From positions 1 through 24,811 of the forward strand of contig JAWCMA010000017.1 in NCBI GenBank assembly GCA_038850285.1: a stretch of 24,811 nt of DNA, written 5' to 3'. Numbering within the stretch: the stretch's first letter is position 1; each line of letters begins with the position of its first letter. The position numbers were made by a program, and so were the translations under genes. Below the pieces are notes generated by a model that did not search any database, was not told where the DNA came from, and saw only the letters and a program-made list of their open reading frames with translations. The DNA comes from Methanocellales archaeon (lineage in GTDB: Archaea > Halobacteriota > JAWCLZ01). Below, in pieces: positions 6,461-23,985 of the stretch.

Positions 6461-6558
6461 GGGCTCGTAGCTCAGTTAGGCAGAGCACCTGGCTTTTATT
6501 TTCGAAAATAGCTTTAGAAGATACCAGGTGGCCGGGGGTTCAAATCCCCCCGAGCCCG
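6461..6558 (+). tRNA. tRNA-Lys(UUU) with a 24-nt intron at position 37/38 (6499-6522); CCA not encoded
   Basis: Acceptor GGGCTCG/CGAGCCC, D arm GCTC/GAGC, anticodon stem CCTGG/CCAGG, anticodon TTT at 6495-6497, T arm GGGGG-TTCAAAT-CCCCC. CTTT/GAAG forms the central helix of the bulge-helix-bulge. Confidence 0.95.
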
Positions 6559-14004: not shown

Positions 14005-14295
14005 TTGGAATTAAATCGCGCCTTGCAAACTGCAATTAAAACCGGTAATGTAAAGATAGGCTCGAGGGAAACAATTAAAGTTGCTTTAAAAGGGGAGGCA
14101 AAGCTGGTAATTTTAGCTAAAAATTGTCCGGTGAAGATAAGAAATCAACTTAAGGAACTTAAATTACCTATATATGAATATCCCGGGCAAAGCCCAGACC
14201 TAGGATTAGCCTGCGGCTTACCCTATACAATTACTGCATTAGCGATAATTGAGCCCGGGGAATCTGAGATTTTAAGTTTATTAAGAGGTGCATAG
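14005..14295 (+). CDS. rpl30e: 50S ribosomal protein L30e
   Basis: AIKTGNVKIG...LGLACG...IIEPGESEI; conserved operon position; TTG start. Confidence 0.96.
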   Translation: MELNRALQTAIKTGNVKIGSRETIKVALKGEAKLVILAKNCPVKIRNQLKELKLPIYEYPGQSPDLGLACGLPYTITALAIIEPGESEILSLLRGA

Positions 14296-20131: not shown

Positions 20132-20175
20132 AAAAGATTATTAATTAAAATAATGAATTAAGAGTGGGGTATATT

Positions 20176-20430
20176 ATGGCCAAGATATTTGCAAAGCATT
20201 TATCAGATAGAAAGGTTGTAACAACCGATGGCTCAGCAATTGGCACACTTTATAATATCATCGTGGATTTGAAAACAGGTAGACTCATAGACCTCGTGGT
20301 AAAGCCAGATCCCGGGGCTAATCTCGAGGGATACAATATTCAGGATAACTTTGTCCTGCTTCCATTTGAATGCGTTAGAGCTGTGCAGGACTTCATAGCT
20401 ATAGATAAAAAAGCAGCAATTATTCAATAA
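20176..20430 (+). CDS. PRC-barrel protein, resembling the CdpB cell-division proteins (CdpB2-like)
   Basis: LSDRKVVTTDGSAIGTLYNIIVDLKTGRLIDLVVKP...VRAVQDFI is a typical archaeal PRC-barrel sequence. Confidence 0.85.
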   Translation: MAKIFAKHLSDRKVVTTDGSAIGTLYNIIVDLKTGRLIDLVVKPDPGANLEGYNIQDNFVLLPFECVRAVQDFIAIDKKAAIIQ

Positions 20431-20454: not shown

Positions 20455-20457
20455 AAA

Positions 20458-20691
20458 TGATGTTCCTCGACATTAACTCCAAGAGTTCATCCGCTGGCAA
20501 GCTGCCGCTGTCTTTCTCAGTAAACCCTATGTCGAGGAATATCTCGTGCTATGGTTGTCTCAAAATTCATCGCTTGGTTATTCCAATTTGCTCCTATGAG
20601 GACCTATATAGCGCGAGTATTGCCCCTCTTTTGCTCGAGTTTTCATCCACTCTAAAATTTAGAGAGTCACACCCGTCCTCATAAGAAGGGC
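20458..20691 (-). ncRNA. Triple-hairpin box H/ACA pseudouridylation guide RNA
   Basis: Three abutting hairpins (20622-20691, 20543-20617, 20464-20538). Each has a 9-10 bp basal stem, an internal pocket, a GA...GAU-GA-A K-turn, and a trailing AUA, AUA or ACA box 15-16 nt from the pocket apex. It has its own TATA box upstream. Confidence 0.82.
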
Positions 20692-20714
20692 ATGAATATA
20701 TAATGTTACTTCCC

Positions 20715-20721
20715 ATATAAA
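20715..20721 (-). promoter_or_regulatory. TATA box for the H/ACA RNA
   Basis: TTTATAT on the minus strand, 24-30 nt upstream of the first paired G (20691). Confidence 0.6.
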
Positions 20722-20759: not shown

Positions 20760-21041
20760 TTATCGGGCTTTGGTTGCTTCCGCTATTGTTTTCTCAGCTA
20801 GCTCCTGCATTCGAATAGAAATTCGACTTGGACTTGAGGATTCCTCGCTTATTAGCGAGGCAAGTTTGGTTCCAAGTACAAAAATAGCGTGTTTATGCTC
20901 TGCTTTGCTGCGATGGATGTGCAGTGGACTTATATGTAAAGCATTGTATTCAGAGAAATCGCCACCCATCCCATTTTGTTCAAAATATCGTTTAATCTGT
21001 ACTAATAGAGAATGGAGATGTATAAGTTCCTCCTTATGCAA
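20760..21041 (-). CDS. UPF0058 family protein
   Basis: MHKEELIHLH...ISPLHIHRSKAEHKHAIFVLG signature; TTG start. Confidence 0.9.
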   Translation of the reverse strand: MHKEELIHLHSLLVQIKRYFEQNGMGGDFSEYNALHISPLHIHRSKAEHKHAIFVLGTKLASLISEESSSPSRISIRMQELAEKTIAEATKAR

Positions 21042-21207: not shown

Positions 21208-22452
21208 CTAGAGATTTTCAGCGGTTAAGATCTTAATTGAAAGAGGTTTTTTCACAATATTACCCAGCTTCATTCCAACTAAGTAATCCAGCTTTTTCTC
21301 AGCAGCAATATCAATTATCCTCTGAGTAATAACTCCATCGAAGACCACGCTGCGCACATTGGCATCGGTTTCCTTAAGTGCCTTAGCGAGATCTCGCACT
21401 GCAACTTCTTTAATTACATTTCTATTTGCATCCAATAGCTTTGCACTTAAAGTACCGCTTAACTCAGCTACATAGCGCTTAAAGTCATCGCCATCCCTCT
21501 CCCTCTCCTGAGGCTCCAGCGCCTTGGTTAGCTCCTCCACGCGTCCCTCCACTTTAGAACTCTCCTCACGATAGAAGATCTTTCTCTTAGAAGCCAGCTC
21601 CCTCCGCCTTAGCCTTCGCTCCTTCACCTGAGGCATATCCACAACTTGCTCCACAGGCAGTTTATTTCTAAGTGCCTTTACAACCTCCTTTTGAGTTAAA
21701 TCCTCAACGCTTTTGCCCTCAGGTGCTCTTGCAACATAGTCCACTTCTGCAACTTGCAAAAGCTCTTTAAGCAATAAATCTCCACCTCTATCGCCATCGA
21801 GGAAAACAGTTACAGTTTTCTTCTTGCTTAATTCCCCAATTACCGCTGGCACATTTGTGCCTTCAACTGCAATTGCATTTTTAATTCCATATTTAAGCAA
21901 ATTTAGCACATCAGCTCTTCCCTCAACTATTATAATTGCATCTGAATCCATAACATTAGGCCCAGCAGGCAGTCCTTCTTCCCCAAATAAAGTTATCTCC
22001 TCAACCTTCACAGCTTGCTTCACGGTCTCCACTAGCTCTTGGCTCTCGGGTATACCTTCATCGAACATGCTTGTGAGAATAACTTTAGCTCTTTCGATGA
22101 TCTGCTTTCTCTTACTAACTCTAACATCCTCTATTCTCTCAACTTTAATGCTTGCTATGCAAGGTCCAACTCTATCTACTGTTTCCAGTGCAGCAGCTAA
22201 TATGGAGGTTTCAATCTTATCCAAGCTCGAGGGAATTAGAATTATGCCAATTGATTTTCCAAACTTTGACTCAATGTTAACTTCTATCCTTCCAATTCTA
22301 CCGGTTTTTTGAAGGTCTCTAAGATCAAGATCGCTGCCGAGCAGTCCTTCAGTTTGGCCAAATATAGCTCCAACTACATCTGGTCTCTCAACCACGCCCT
22401 CAGCGTTTATTTGAGCGTGAATAATGTATTTAGTTGTATCTGAAGCTTCCAT
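21208..22452 (-). CDS. dnaG: Archaeal DnaG (toprim; exosome-associated)
   Basis: [32 protein letters not shown]. Confidence 0.98.
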
Positions 22453-23613: not shown

Positions 23614-23985
23614 GGGAGAGTGGAAGGGCAGCTGCCGGTACTTAAAGTGCTGAGGAAAGTCCCCTCACCATCTGGAAAGGCGAGCATGCGCAAGCATGCG
23701 GAGCGAGAGCTTCGGCTCTGGCACAGCAACGCCACGTCCAAGCGAATGGAATGAGGCGGCTGAGCGTTAACTTAGCGCAAGAAGAAGTTCAGCAATGAAC
23801 TTCGAGCTAACCCGTTGACGTCTCGCTTGGGAACGTTGGAACGGCGAATCCTCGCCGGTGCAAGCCAAAAGGGCTTATGAGGTCTGGACGAAGCCCTTGG
23901 TAGGCGCTTAGCCAAATGCTGCATAGCCCAAATCTCTGCTACTGCAGAGGGGCTTAACAGAAAGGGGCTTACTCTCCACACTCCC
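23614..23985 (+). ncRNA. rnpB: RNase P RNA, archaeal type A
   Basis: GAGGAAAGTCCCC and AACAGAAAGGGGCTTA conserved regions; P1 GGGAG.GTGGA/TCCAC.CTCCC; P7 GGCGAG/CTCGCC; P8 CATGC-GCAA-GCATG; P9; L15 GGT; P16 AAGGGCTT/AAGCCCTT. Confidence 0.97.

What the first reader, a model, noticed from the sequence alone, without database searches (positions are those of the whole stretch)
20458..20691. Unannotated three-hairpin H/ACA guide RNA aimed at ribosome functional centres
Seen on the minus strand: HP1 GCCCUUCUU/AAGAGGGGC then AUA; HP2 CUCGCGCUAU/AUAGCACGAG then AUA; HP3 UCCUCGACAU/AUGUCGAGGA then ACA. All three carry the same GA...GAU-GA-A K-turn and a two-sided pocket, and there is a dedicated TATA box. 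Known: archaeal H/ACA units have this layout (L7Ae K-turn, ANA box 14-16 nt from the target), and three-hairpin examples exist in Thermococcales and Archaeoglobus. Inference, using archaeal 23S sequences recalled from memory: HP3 pockets AGGGU / GAGUUA fit the H69 loop UAACU..U.ACCCU (E. coli U1915/U1917 equivalents). HP2 pockets AUAGGU / ACAACC fit the A-loop GGUUGU-U-C-GCCUAU (U2555 equivalent). HP1 pockets GAGG / GCAA may fit UUGC-U-A-CCUC (position 2496 equivalent; weakest match).
Basis: partly seen in the sequence, partly recalled or inferred. Interest (0 to 1): 0.82.

Follow-up and report, generated by a model that had tools for sequence, protein, structure and literature searches.

The report
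Three-hairpin H/ACA pseudouridine guide RNA
This is a real but unannotated small RNA gene of an uncultured archaeon that most likely tells the enzyme Cbf5 which uridines in the working centres of the large ribosomal RNA to turn into pseudouridine; it is a diverged copy of a guide RNA already known from Pyrococcus and Archaeoglobus, so it is ordinary rather than new.

Summary
On the minus strand, 20691-20458 reads as three stem/pocket/K-turn hairpins followed by AUA, AUA and ACA, with a conserved TATA box centred about 27 nt upstream.

It is a sub-threshold homologue of Rfam RF00064 (HgcG/Pab40/Pf7/Afu-4): 42.8 bits against a cut-off of 77, E 1.2e-10, collinear over the whole model. A model built from this lineage retrieves all 15 threshold-passing RF00064 loci. 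It finds one copy in 127 of 151 genomes of the phylum sample. Stems covary: 49 of 54 pairs change on both sides.

Against the organism's own partial 23S:
- HP1 fits the E. coli-2496-equivalent U.
- HP3 fits the H69 U1915/U1917 equivalents. Both are the experimentally shown targets of Pab40 motifs 1 and 3.
- HP2 fits the A-loop U2555 equivalent (6+6 bp). It also fits the U2586 equivalent (4+4 bp), the site proven for the Haloferax counterpart.

Guide and target covary across lineages. Cbf5, Gar1 and L7Ae are encoded; Nop10 was not found in this 93%-complete assembly. No expression data exist.

The parts
20715..20721 (-). TATA box (TTTATAT on the minus strand), centred about 27 nt upstream of the first base of HP1
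   Evidence: Invariant in the 4 family members. Promoter function is inferred from position, not shown.
20458..20691 (-). Whole three-hairpin box H/ACA sRNA. The 5' end is inferred from the TATA spacing and the 3' end from ACA plus 3 nt.
   Evidence: RF00064 gives 42.8 bits, E 1.2e-10, model positions 1-276. R1 gives 217.6 bits. Fold z-score is -4.33.
20622..20691 (-). HP1. Lower stem 20691-20683 / 20630-22. 5' pocket AUGAGGA 20682-76. Upper stem CGGGU/ACUCG. K-turn GA 20668-67 and GAUGA 20647-43. 3' pocket AGCAA 20635-31.
   Evidence: Best target is own-23S U at lsu 1561 (E. coli 2496 equivalent), 5+5 bp at 14 nt from AUA.
20618..20620 (-). ANA box 1 (AUA)
   Evidence: Aligned to the ACA of HgcG motif 1. 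It is AUA or ACA in relatives.
20543..20617 (-). HP2. Lower stem 20617-08 / 20552-43 with one C-A. 5' pocket AUAGGUC 20607-01. Upper stem CUCA/UGAG. K-turn GA 20593-92 and GAUGA 20571-67. 3' pocket ACAACC 20558-53.
   Evidence: Targets are lsu 1620 (A-loop U2555 equivalent, 6+6 bp, 16 nt) and lsu 1651 (U2586 equivalent, 4+4 bp, 14 nt). The upper stem covaries in 4 of 5 pairs.
20540..20542 (-). ANA box 2 (AUA)
20464..20538 (-). HP3. Lower stem 20538-29 / 20473-64. 5' pocket AGGGUUUA 20528-21. Upper stem CUGAG/CUUGG. K-turn GA 20512-11 and GAUGA 20491-87. 3' pocket AGUUA 20478-74.
   Evidence: Target is the H69 loop at lsu 990/992 (U1915/U1917 equivalents), 4+6 bp at 14 nt. The lower and upper stems covary.
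20461..20463 (-). ACA box
   Evidence: It is ACA in 3 and AUA in 1 of the 4 family members.
20760..21041 (-). Upstream neighbour on the same strand: UPF0058 protein gene. Context only, not part of the RNA.
   Evidence: Pfam PF01893, E 2.9e-33. The RNA follows this gene in the 3 family relatives only, which is 3 of 80 UPF0058 loci.
20164..20430 (+). Convergent downstream neighbour: PRC-barrel protein gene. Context only.
   Evidence: Pfam PF05239, E 3.1e-11

Best explanation
Window 20691-20458 (minus strand) encodes a box H/ACA guide sRNA of about 234 nt with three guide hairpins. It is the orthologue in this lineage of Pab40/Pf7/Pho40/Afu-4 (Rfam HgcG, RF00064).

Inferred mechanism, by analogy with solved and reconstituted archaeal H/ACA RNPs:
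- It is transcribed from its own TATA promoter.
- Each hairpin binds L7Ae at its K-turn.
- Each hairpin binds Cbf5-Nop10-Gar1 at its lower stem and ANA box.
- The two strands of each internal loop pair with 23S rRNA on either side of a target U, which Cbf5 isomerises to pseudouridine.

Predicted targets, in E. coli-equivalent numbering (recalled):
- HP1: U at 2496, next to the peptidyl-transferase centre. About 0.8.
- HP3: H69 U1915, and probably U1917 as well, in an unpaired UAUA configuration. About 0.85.
- HP2: A-loop U2555 and/or U2586. About 0.55 each, and about 0.9 that at least one is right.

What is shown: sequence anatomy, homology, stem covariation, complementarity to the organism's own 23S, guide-target covariation across lineages, and the presence of Cbf5, Gar1 and L7Ae genes.

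What is inferred: transcription, RNP assembly and actual pseudouridine formation.
For: Anatomy:
- Three stem/pocket/K-turn hairpins each end in ANA.
- The distance from the G-A pairs to the pocket is 9-10 nt. Majumder 2020 quotes this as typical (PMC7075261).

Homology:
- RF00064 aligns full length at E 1.2e-10.
- Model R1, built from 11 sequences of 5 families, hits all 15 Rfam-passing loci at 59.6-87.8 bits.
- R1 hits 127 of 151 genomes, in 23 of 26 families.

Structure:
- RNAalifold on a plain MAFFT alignment gives 53 pairs, 26 of them compensatory.
- On the model-fitted alignment, 49 of 54 pairs change on both sides. 91.0% of cells are paired, against 67.4% in shuffles (0 of 500 reach it) and 36-47% when partners are slid.

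Targets in the own 23S:
- HP1: lsu 1561, 5+5 bp, 14 nt from the ANA box.
- HP2: lsu 1620, 6+6 bp. In one search, 0 of 300 shuffles reached it.
- HP3: lsu 990, 4+6 bp, 14 nt from the ANA box.

Orthologue targets:
- Pab40 motif 1 guides 23S 2588 and motif 3 guides 2016 (H69). Both were shown in vitro (PMC2377435).
- Both positions map onto the same nucleotides here.

Guide-target covariation:
- HP1: guide CGAGG with target CCUCG in f1, f6, f15, f21, f9 and f26.
- HP1: guide CGAAG with target CUUCG in G029 and G061.
- HP1: guide GAUG with target CAUC in G088.
- HP3: guide GGGUCA with target UGACCC, and guide GGGUUA with target UAACCC.
- HP2: in G029, the guide change ACAACC to ACUACC matches a U-to-A change in its A-loop.

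Proteins:
- Cbf5 with DKCLD, TruB_N, TruB_C_2 and PUA domains.
- Gar1.
- L7Ae.
Against: - There is no expression or modification data. No RNA run holds the locus, which is uninformative either way.
- The score is below Rfam's gathering cut-off (42.8 against 77).
- Nop10 was not found in the own assembly by Pfam search or tblastn. It is present in all 3 family relatives, and the assembly is 93% complete.
- The own 16S and the 5' third of the 23S are not assembled, so further or better targets there cannot be excluded for this genome. A relative's full 23S gave the same top hits.
- In a strict scan, HP3's best hit was another site, lsu 1826.
- HP2's A-loop pairing sits 16 nt from the ANA box, outside the 14-15 nt rule of Muller 2008.
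- The covariation counts come partly from an alignment fitted to the model, and the sequences are related to one another.
Confidence: 0.92

Rival explanations
1. The RNA is the same H/ACA guide, but HP2 does not guide the A-loop U at all. Its only target is the U2586 equivalent, as Muller et al. argued for the orthologous motif 2 of Afu-4 and Pf7 and as shown for Haloferax sR-h45 SL1.
For: - The U2586-equivalent pairing (GGUC with GACC, AACC with GGUU) sits at the canonical 14 nt from AUA, while the A-loop U sits at 16.
- Muller 2008 found active interactions only at 14-15 nt and reassigned Afu-4/Pf7 motif 2 to this site (PMC2377435).
- Haloferax SL1 makes Psi2605 in vivo with only 3+5 bp (PMC7075261).
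- G061 (f10) has a diverged A-loop. Its HP2 has lost A-loop complementarity and gained 4+6 bp to this site.
- The high-GC two-hairpin forms carry UAGUC/GAACCC, which fits only this site.
Against: - The A-loop complement is longer: 12 bp against 8.
- The extra letters needed only for the A-loop are widely kept. AUAGGUC...ACAACC occurs in 20 of 47 homologues read, and [AU][AU]AGGUC...ACAACC in 28 of 47.
- In G029 the guide changed at exactly the position that compensates an A-loop change, and the same change breaks the U2586 pairing next to the target.
- Toffano-Nioche 2015 accept Af4.2b guiding L2601, 'as shown by Tang et al.' (PMC4652768 section 14). That position equals the U2555 equivalent.
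- Haloferax SL2 works at distances two and four bases beyond the typical one.
Confidence: 0.3
2. The RNA is not made from its own promoter. It is the processed 3' part of the UPF0058 mRNA, which lies on the same strand and stops 68 nt upstream. This concerns biogenesis only and is compatible with the guide function.
For: UPF0058 (21041-20760) and the RNA are co-oriented and adjacent here and in the 3 family relatives.
Against: - A TTTATAT box is invariant in 4 of 4 family members at the distance expected for an archaeal promoter.
- In the other 77 UPF0058 loci examined, from other lineages, no such RNA lies within 1.5 kb. In other families the RNA therefore lies elsewhere, so it does not depend on that gene.
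Confidence: 0.12
3. The region is a conserved structured element with no guide activity (a decayed gene or a protein-binding decoy), or it encodes one of the small ORFs that overlap it (20457-20684 plus strand, 75 aa; 20594-20716 minus strand, 40 aa).
For: - ORFs of 75 and 40 aa overlap the region.
- Nop10 was not found in the assembly.
- No transcript data exist.
Against: - The pockets are the most conserved parts and the stems vary by compensatory change, which is the signature of a working guide and not of a coding frame.
- Family members differ by 1- and 2-nt indels inside the ORFs.
- The RNA is kept as a single copy in 127 of 151 genomes.
- Guide and target letters covary.
Confidence: 0.03

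Closest known systems
Pab40 / Pf7 / Pho40 (Pyrococcus) = Rfam RF00064 HgcG
   Same: - Three H/ACA motifs in one transcript, each with a K-turn, and ANA boxes at aligned positions. The alignment is collinear over all 276 model positions.
- Motif 1 guides the 2496-equivalent U (Pab 2588) and motif 3 guides H69 (Pab 2016). These are the same nucleotides as HP1 and HP3 here.
   Different: - Only 42.8 bits, below the cut-off of 77.
- About 45% G+C here against about 60%.
- Pab40 motif 2 has a rearranged fold and guides Pab 1932 instead.
- Pocket letters differ where the rRNA differs, for example GAUG with CAUC in G088 against UGAGG with CCUCG here.
Afu-4 (Archaeoglobus fulgidus three-motif H/ACA sRNA)
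   Same: - Three motifs.
- Motif 3 guides H69 (L1970).
- Motif 2 was assigned by Tang 2002, and accepted by Toffano-Nioche 2015, to L2601. That position equals the A-loop U2555 equivalent, the same as the best HP2 match here.
   Different: - Motif 1 of Afu-4 is listed with a 16S target (S1167) in PMC4652768. HP1 here found no 16S match in relatives' 16S.
- Muller 2008 dispute the L2601 assignment.
- Tang 2002 itself could not be read.
Haloferax volcanii sR-h45 (double stem-loop H/ACA RNA)
   Same: - SL1 guides Psi2605, the U2586 equivalent, with a short 3+5 bp pairing.
- SL2 guides both H69 pseudouridines from an unpaired UNUN (PMC7075261).
- HP2 and HP3 here have the matching pocket cores (GGUC/AACC and GGGU/GUUA), in the same order.
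   Different: - sR-h45 has two hairpins separated by a 56-nt linker and no HP1-type motif.
- Its SL1-type pocket, as seen in the high-GC genomes of the sample (UAGUC/GAACCC), lacks the letters that complement the A-loop.
- Calling those high-GC genomes haloarchaea-like is my inference.
Eukaryotic H/ACA snoRNAs for the same sites (yeast snR191 for H69, snR46 for Psi2865, snR10 for Psi2923; all recalled, not checked here)
   Same: Same chemistry and the same conserved ribosomal sites. Muller 2008 state that Pab 2016 and 2588 are pseudouridylated in eukaryotes.
   Different: - Eukaryotic guides have the two-hairpin H-box/ACA layout without K-turns.
- They show no detectable sequence homology. The only weak Rfam hit, snR3 at E 0.025, is below threshold.

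Membership tests
Archaeal box H/ACA guide sRNA | Hairpin with a lower stem, a two-sided internal loop (pseudouridylation pocket) and an upper stem, followed directly by an ANA trinucleotide | tested here: met
   Present three times: AUA at 20620-18, AUA at 20542-40 and ACA at 20463-61.
Archaeal box H/ACA guide sRNA | [quoted passage not shown] | tested here: met
   GA on the 5' strand and GAUGA on the 3' strand in all three hairpins. The distance from the pocket to the distal G-A is 9 nt in HP1, 9 or 10 in HP2 and 10 in HP3. The typical value is quoted in PMC7075261. L7Ae binding itself was not tested.
Archaeal box H/ACA guide sRNA | Bipartite complementarity of the pocket to rRNA around an unpaired U-N, with the target about 14-15 nt from the ANA box | tested here: met
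   HP1 has 5+5 bp at 14 nt. HP3 has 4+6 bp at 14 nt, with UAU or UAUA unpaired. HP2 has 4+4 bp at 14 nt (U2586 equivalent) and 6+6 bp at 16 nt (A-loop). The A-loop pairing alone would fall outside the Muller rule.
Archaeal box H/ACA guide sRNA | Stems maintained by compensatory change while the pockets stay conserved | tested here: met
   26 of 53 pairs on the MAFFT alignment. 49 of 54 pairs on the model-fitted alignment, with 0 of 500 shuffles as high.
Archaeal box H/ACA guide sRNA | Genome encodes the four core proteins Cbf5, Nop10, Gar1 and L7Ae | tested here: inconclusive
   Cbf5, Gar1 and L7Ae were found. Nop10 was not found in the 93%-complete assembly but is present in 3 of 3 family relatives.
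Archaeal box H/ACA guide sRNA | The RNA is expressed and the predicted uridines are pseudouridines | not testable with these tools
   No RNA run holds the locus, and no modification data exist.
Rfam RF00064 HgcG (Pab40) | Score at or above the curated gathering cut-off (77 bits) | tested here: not met
   42.8 bits, E 1.2e-10. The cut-off is a curation convention. In the phylum sample only 15 of 151 genomes pass it.
Rfam RF00064 HgcG (Pab40) | Collinear three-motif architecture alignable over the whole model | tested here: met
   Model positions 1-276 of 276 are aligned, with the ANA boxes in register.
Rfam RF00064 HgcG (Pab40) | Reciprocal homology: a model of this lineage finds the accepted members | tested here: met
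   R1 hits all 15 loci that pass the Rfam cut-off (L011-L025) at 59.6-87.8 bits, E 5e-17 to 1e-25, at the same coordinates.
Rfam RF00064 HgcG (Pab40) | Same rRNA targets as the experimentally characterised member (motif 1: Pab 2588; motif 3: Pab 2016) | tested here: met
   Pab positions map to G088 numbering minus 8, with 8 of 12 Psi sites being U and no other offset reaching 8. 2588 and 2016 fall on the nucleotides predicted for HP1 and HP3. Motif 2 is known to differ even within Pyrococcus.

The most novel reading that the evidence does not exclude
HP2 is a true dual-specificity pocket. Its core (GGUC/AACC) guides the U2586 equivalent, and the same pocket extended by a few letters (AUAGGU/ACAACC) guides the A-loop U2555 next to the universally methylated U2552/G2553.

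Different archaeal lineages would then have kept both functions, or only the U2586 one, or tracked the A-loop:
- Both: most families, this one included.
- Only U2586: the high-GC two-hairpin forms and f10.
- Tracking the A-loop: f7.

This would settle the 2002-2015 disagreement in print over the target of Afu-4/Pf7 motif 2. It would also show sub-functionalisation of a single guide pocket across a phylum.
Probability: 0.35. Interest if true: 0.5.

Novelty: new member of a known kind. Interest (0 to 1): 0.27.

Why it matters
It matters for annotation more than for biology.

Annotation:
- An abundant, ancient archaeal guide RNA is missed by standard pipelines because the Rfam cut-off for RF00064 is tuned to a few hyperthermophiles. 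15 of 151 sampled genomes pass it.
- A model built from this lineage finds one copy in 127 of 151. A broader seed would annotate it routinely.

Biology:
- It adds an uncultured hot-spring lineage to the evidence that pseudouridines at H69, the 2496 position and the A-loop/2586 region are guided by one conserved three-headed RNA.
- It gives comparative data on which site motif 2 really serves: guide changes that follow rRNA changes in G029, G061 and G088.

Tried and rejected
- Expression: the look-up of sequencing runs listed 7 DNA-type runs and no RNA holder. Nothing follows for or against transcription.
- Papers: Tang 2002 (PMC124276) and Blaby 2011 (PMC3138572) are not held. Their content is cited only through PMC4652768, PMC2377435 and PMC7075261.
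- Supplements: these are closed. Figure S1 of Muller 2008, which shows the Afu-4/Pf7 motif 2 pairings, and the supplementary figures of Toffano-Nioche 2015 could not be seen. They bear directly on the HP2 target question.
- Synteny as a search handle: 80 UPF0058 loci from genome contigs were scanned with R1. Only the 3 of the own family carry the RNA.
- Alternative small hairpin inside the HP2 5' pocket (UCCU/AGGA): RNAalifold predicts it and it is drawn in the Rfam consensus. It shows 0 of 5 pairs with compensatory change, against 4 of 5 for the canonical upper stem. Rejected.
- Alternative HP3 target at lsu 1826 (domain VI): this was the top hit in the strict scan. The target position is not U in G008, G102, G046 and G088. 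The guide variants of G001 and G002 fit H69 but not this site. Rejected.
- 16S targets: the own 16S is not assembled. In G008's 16S and G003's partial 16S, HP1 found nothing, and HP2 and HP3 found only weaker hits scoring 21 or less.
- Nop10: the Pfam search and a tblastn with a relative's Nop10 found no convincing match in the own assembly.
- Earlier scan notes by place and by sequence returned nothing.
- The sigma-70 promoter/terminator scanner was not used because it does not cover archaeal promoters.
Full report
**1. The observation**

| Hairpin | Lower stem | 5' pocket | Upper stem | K-turn letters | 3' pocket | ANA box |
|---|---|---|---|---|---|---|
| HP1 | GCCCUUCUU/AAGAGGGGC (9 bp, one U-G) | AUGAGGA | CGGGU/ACUCG | GA and GAUGA | AGCAA | AUA, after a one-nt spacer |
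| HP2 | CUCGCGCUAU/AUAGCACGAG (one C-A) | AUAGGUC | CUCA/UGAG | GA and GAUGA | ACAACC | AUA |
| HP3 | UCCUCGACAU/AUGUCGAGGA | AGGGUUUA | CUGAG/CUUGG | GA and GAUGA | AGUUA | ACA |

- A TTTATAT box lies at 20721-20715. Its centre is about 27 nt before the first G of HP1, and it is invariant in the four members of the family.
- The 241-nt stretch folds at -75.2 kcal/mol, z -4.33. None of 200 dinucleotide shuffles folds as well.

**2. What it is**

- With Rfam's gathering cut-offs nothing is reported here. The window's only hits are RNase P RNA and one tRNA.
- With an E-value threshold the region aligns over all 276 positions of RF00064, HgcG (Pab40). The score is 42.8 bits (cut-off 77) and E is 1.2e-10. 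The ANA boxes are in register.
- By BLASTN the RNA is found in the 3 other genomes of the family and, in part, in one more: 5 of 41 genomes including the own one.
- RF00064 itself finds 38 of 151 genomes of the phylum sample at E <= 0.001. Only 15 of these are above its cut-off, and all 15 belong to one family, f4.
- I built a covariance model, R1, from 11 sequences of five families.
- R1 retrieves all 15 cut-off-passing RF00064 loci at 59.6-87.8 bits.
- R1 finds, as a rule, one match per genome in 127 of 151 genomes, in 23 of 26 families. The 11 training sequences match by construction. The weakest hits cover only one or two hairpins.
- Reading 47 homologues shows three layouts:
  - The three-hairpin form in f1, f6, f15, f21, f13, f7, f9, f5, f4 and f26.
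  - Forms with only the HP2- and HP3-type hairpins in several families. These include high-G+C genomes whose layout recalls the Haloferax double stem-loop sR-h45; that resemblance is my inference.
  - An HP1+HP2 form in f10.

**3. Structure**

- RNAalifold on the plain MAFFT alignment of 11 sequences predicts 53 pairs, 26 of them with compensatory changes.
- On the alignment of 32 sequences fitted to R1, a curated structure gives the following:
  - 49 of 54 pairs change on both sides.
  - 91.0% of cells are paired, against 67.4% in shuffles (0 of 500 as high).
  - 36-47% are paired when partners are slid by 1-3 columns.
- That alignment leans towards the model and the sequences are kin, so these figures overstate independence.
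- The canonical upper stem of HP2 covaries in 4 of 5 pairs.
- The alternative small hairpin inside the HP2 5' pocket is predicted by RNAalifold and drawn in the Rfam consensus. It covaries in 0 of 5 pairs.
- The distance from the pocket to the distal G-A pair is 9-10 nt in all three hairpins. PMC7075261 quotes this as typical.

**4. Targets**

The own genome holds only the 3' two thirds of the 23S (contig C29) and no 16S.

A rule-based scan required at least 4 bp on the 3' guide, at least 3 bp on the 5' guide and 13-16 nt to the ANA box. It gave:

| Hairpin | Own-23S position (lsu) | Pairing | Distance to ANA |
|---|---|---|---|
| HP1 | 1561 | 5+5 bp | 14 nt |
| HP2 | 1620 | 6+6 bp | 16 nt |
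| HP2 | 1619 | 5+6 bp, three unpaired | 15 nt |
| HP2 | 1651 | 4+4 bp | 14 nt |
| HP3 | 990 | 4+6 bp, UAU unpaired | 14 nt |
| HP3 | 1826 | 4+6 bp | 15 nt |

- The same hits head the list on the complete 23S of relative G002.
- In mononucleotide shuffles of the 23S, the observed best score was reached in 0 of 300 for HP2, 4 of 300 for HP1 and 13 of 300 for HP3.
- In E. coli numbering, which I recall rather than computed, the sites are 2496 (lsu 1561), 2554/2555 in the A-loop (1619/1620), 2586 (1651) and 1915/1917 in H69 (990/992).

**5. Link to experiment**

- Muller et al. 2008 (PMC2377435; abstract and passages read) showed by CMCT mapping and in vitro reconstitution that Pab40 motif 1 guides 23S 2588 and motif 3 guides 2016 in H69.
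- Motif 2 is weakly active at 1932 because of a point mutation.
- The same paper equates Afu 2601 with Pab 2647, and Afu 2632 with Pab 2678. Pab 2678 corresponds to the Haloarcula pseudouridine.
- In genome G088, the only numbering offset between -45 and +10 at which at least 8 of the 12 Pab pseudouridine positions are U is -8.
- At that offset, Pab 2016, 2588, 2647 and 2678 fall on the H69 U1915 equivalent, the 2496 equivalent, the second U of the A-loop GUUC, and the third U of GGGUUUAG.
- HP1 and HP3 therefore share the proven targets of their Pab40 counterparts.
- The two HP2 candidates are exactly the two sites disputed in print for Afu-4/Pf7 motif 2:
  - Tang 2002, as cited in PMC4652768 section 14, favours the A-loop site.
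  - Muller 2008 favour the 2586-type site on the ground of their 14-15 nt rule.
- Majumder et al. 2020 (PMC7075261; passages read) add three points:
  - In Haloferax the 2586-type site is guided in vivo by only 3+5 bp.
  - One hairpin makes both H69 pseudouridines from an unpaired UNUN.
  - Distances two to four bases beyond the typical one still work when the ACA box is present.

**6. Guide-target covariation**

Guides are. rRNA sequences are.

- HP1:
  - Guide CGAGG faces target CCUCG in G002, G003, G008, G028, G102, G021, G011 and G132. G000 has UGAGG, with one G-U.
  - Guide CGAAG faces target CUUCG in G029 and G061.
  - Guide GAUG faces target CAUC in G088.
  - G058 (CGAGA facing CUUCG) and G046 (CGGGG facing CUUCG, wobble pairs) fit less neatly.
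- HP3:
  - Guide GGGUCA faces target UGACCC in G088, G046 and G029.
  - Guide GGGUUA faces target UAACCC in G002.
  - G000 and G003 carry one extra U, and G001 one extra A, in the middle of this strand. These are compatible with H69 if bulged, but not with the rival site lsu 1826.
  - The lsu 1826 target position is not even U in G008, G102, G046 and G088.
  - f6 and f15 keep an A opposite position 1918 whatever the rRNA letter, which fits the UNUN mode.
- HP2, evidence pointing to the A-loop:
  - The A-loop and the 2586 site are identical in most genomes, so only exceptions inform.
  - G029 has an unusual A-loop, with A at the U2552 equivalent.
  - Its guide reads ACUACC instead of ACAACC. 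This restores that pair and at the same time breaks the pair next to the target at the 2586 site.
  - Two other changes in that A-loop are not compensated.
- HP2, evidence pointing to the 2586 site:
  - G061 has another A-loop variant, and its HP2 pocket (CACGGUC/AAACCA) no longer fits the A-loop. It fits the 2586 site with 4+6 bp at 14 nt.
  - The high-G+C two-hairpin forms (UAGUC/GAACCC) also fit only the 2586 site.
- Among the 47 homologues read, AUAGGUC...ACAACC occurs in 20, [AU][AU]AGGUC...ACAACC in 28, and the core GGUC...AACC in 34.
- I conclude that both sites are served by this hairpin lineage, and that G000's pocket is able to serve both.

**7. Machinery and context**

- The own genome encodes Cbf5: 330 aa with DKCLD, TruB_N, TruB_C_2 and PUA domains.
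- It also encodes Gar1 and L7Ae.
- Nop10 was not found. It is present in all three family relatives and in two more distant genomes. The assembly is 93% complete, in 39 contigs.
- The RNA lies 68 nt downstream of a UPF0058 gene on the same strand and converges on a PRC-barrel gene.
- This arrangement is shared only by the three family relatives, whose record titles read 'MAG: Methanocellales archaeon'. That is 3 of 80 UPF0058 loci.

**8. Verdict**

The RNA is a diverged member of the long-known Pab40/Pf7/Afu-4 family, not a new kind.

Earlier notes of this scan (AI notes, not independent evidence) reach the same conclusion for Asgard and Hadarchaeota counterparts. This agrees with an ancient, widespread gene.

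What remains open:
- Whether the RNA is expressed here.
- Which of the two HP2 sites is modified.
- Whether the 16S or the 5' third of the 23S holds further targets.

Noticed in passing
window 23616-23983 (+): Archaeal RNase P RNA, RF00373, 205.8 bits. It has two insertions relative to the model.
   Followed up: no
window 6461-6558 (+): tRNA gene with a 25-nt intron in the anticodon arm (RF00005, 62.5 bits).
   Followed up: no
Phylum sample: Rfam RF00064's gathering cut-off passes only 15 of 151 genomes, all in one family. A model built from this lineage finds a single copy in 127 of 151. The Rfam seed is too narrow for this family.
   Followed up: partly
L036 (G029 guide RNA) and L138 (G029 23S): G029's 23S A-loop reads GGGAGUUCACCCAU, with A at the equivalent of the near-universal U2552. 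Its guide carries the complementary change. This could be a real variant or a MAG artefact.
   Followed up: partly
L165 / L194 (G132, f26): The A-loop region is strongly divergent (GGCUGUCCUUCAAU), and the HP2-type pocket is unlike all the others and complementary to neither candidate site.
   Followed up: no
window 20667-20668 vs L007, L008, L009: The 5'-strand GA of the HP1 K-turn is AA in all three family relatives, which gives an A-A instead of an A-G at the second sheared pair. G000 has the canonical GA.
   Followed up: no
window 20613 / 20547: The HP2 lower stem has a C-A mismatch in G000 where the three relatives have U-G. This is a two-sided change between two wobble-type pairs.
   Followed up: no
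Own genome G000: The nop10 gene, the whole 16S and the first third or so of the 23S are missing from the assembly. The 23S fragment runs into the end of contig C29.
   Followed up: partly
window 21208-22452 (-): A DnaG-type Toprim protein gene lies just upstream of UPF0058 and the guide RNA. An earlier scan note (e1-5593541) describes an Asgard Pab40-type RNA upstream of toprim-dnaG, so there may be an old linkage.
   Followed up: no
window 14011-14274 (+): A second L7Ae/L30e-family gene (PF01248, 55.7 bits, 102-aa frame) lies in the same window. The stronger L7Ae match is on contig C1.
   Followed up: no
L166, L167, L184 (f10) and L160-L163, L168-L170 etc.: The hairpin number varies across the phylum. 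f10 has HP1+HP2 without an HP3-type hairpin. f2, f3, f12, f14 and f23-25, and the high-GC families, have HP2+HP3 without an HP1-type hairpin. A separate gene for the missing hairpin was not looked for.
   Followed up: no
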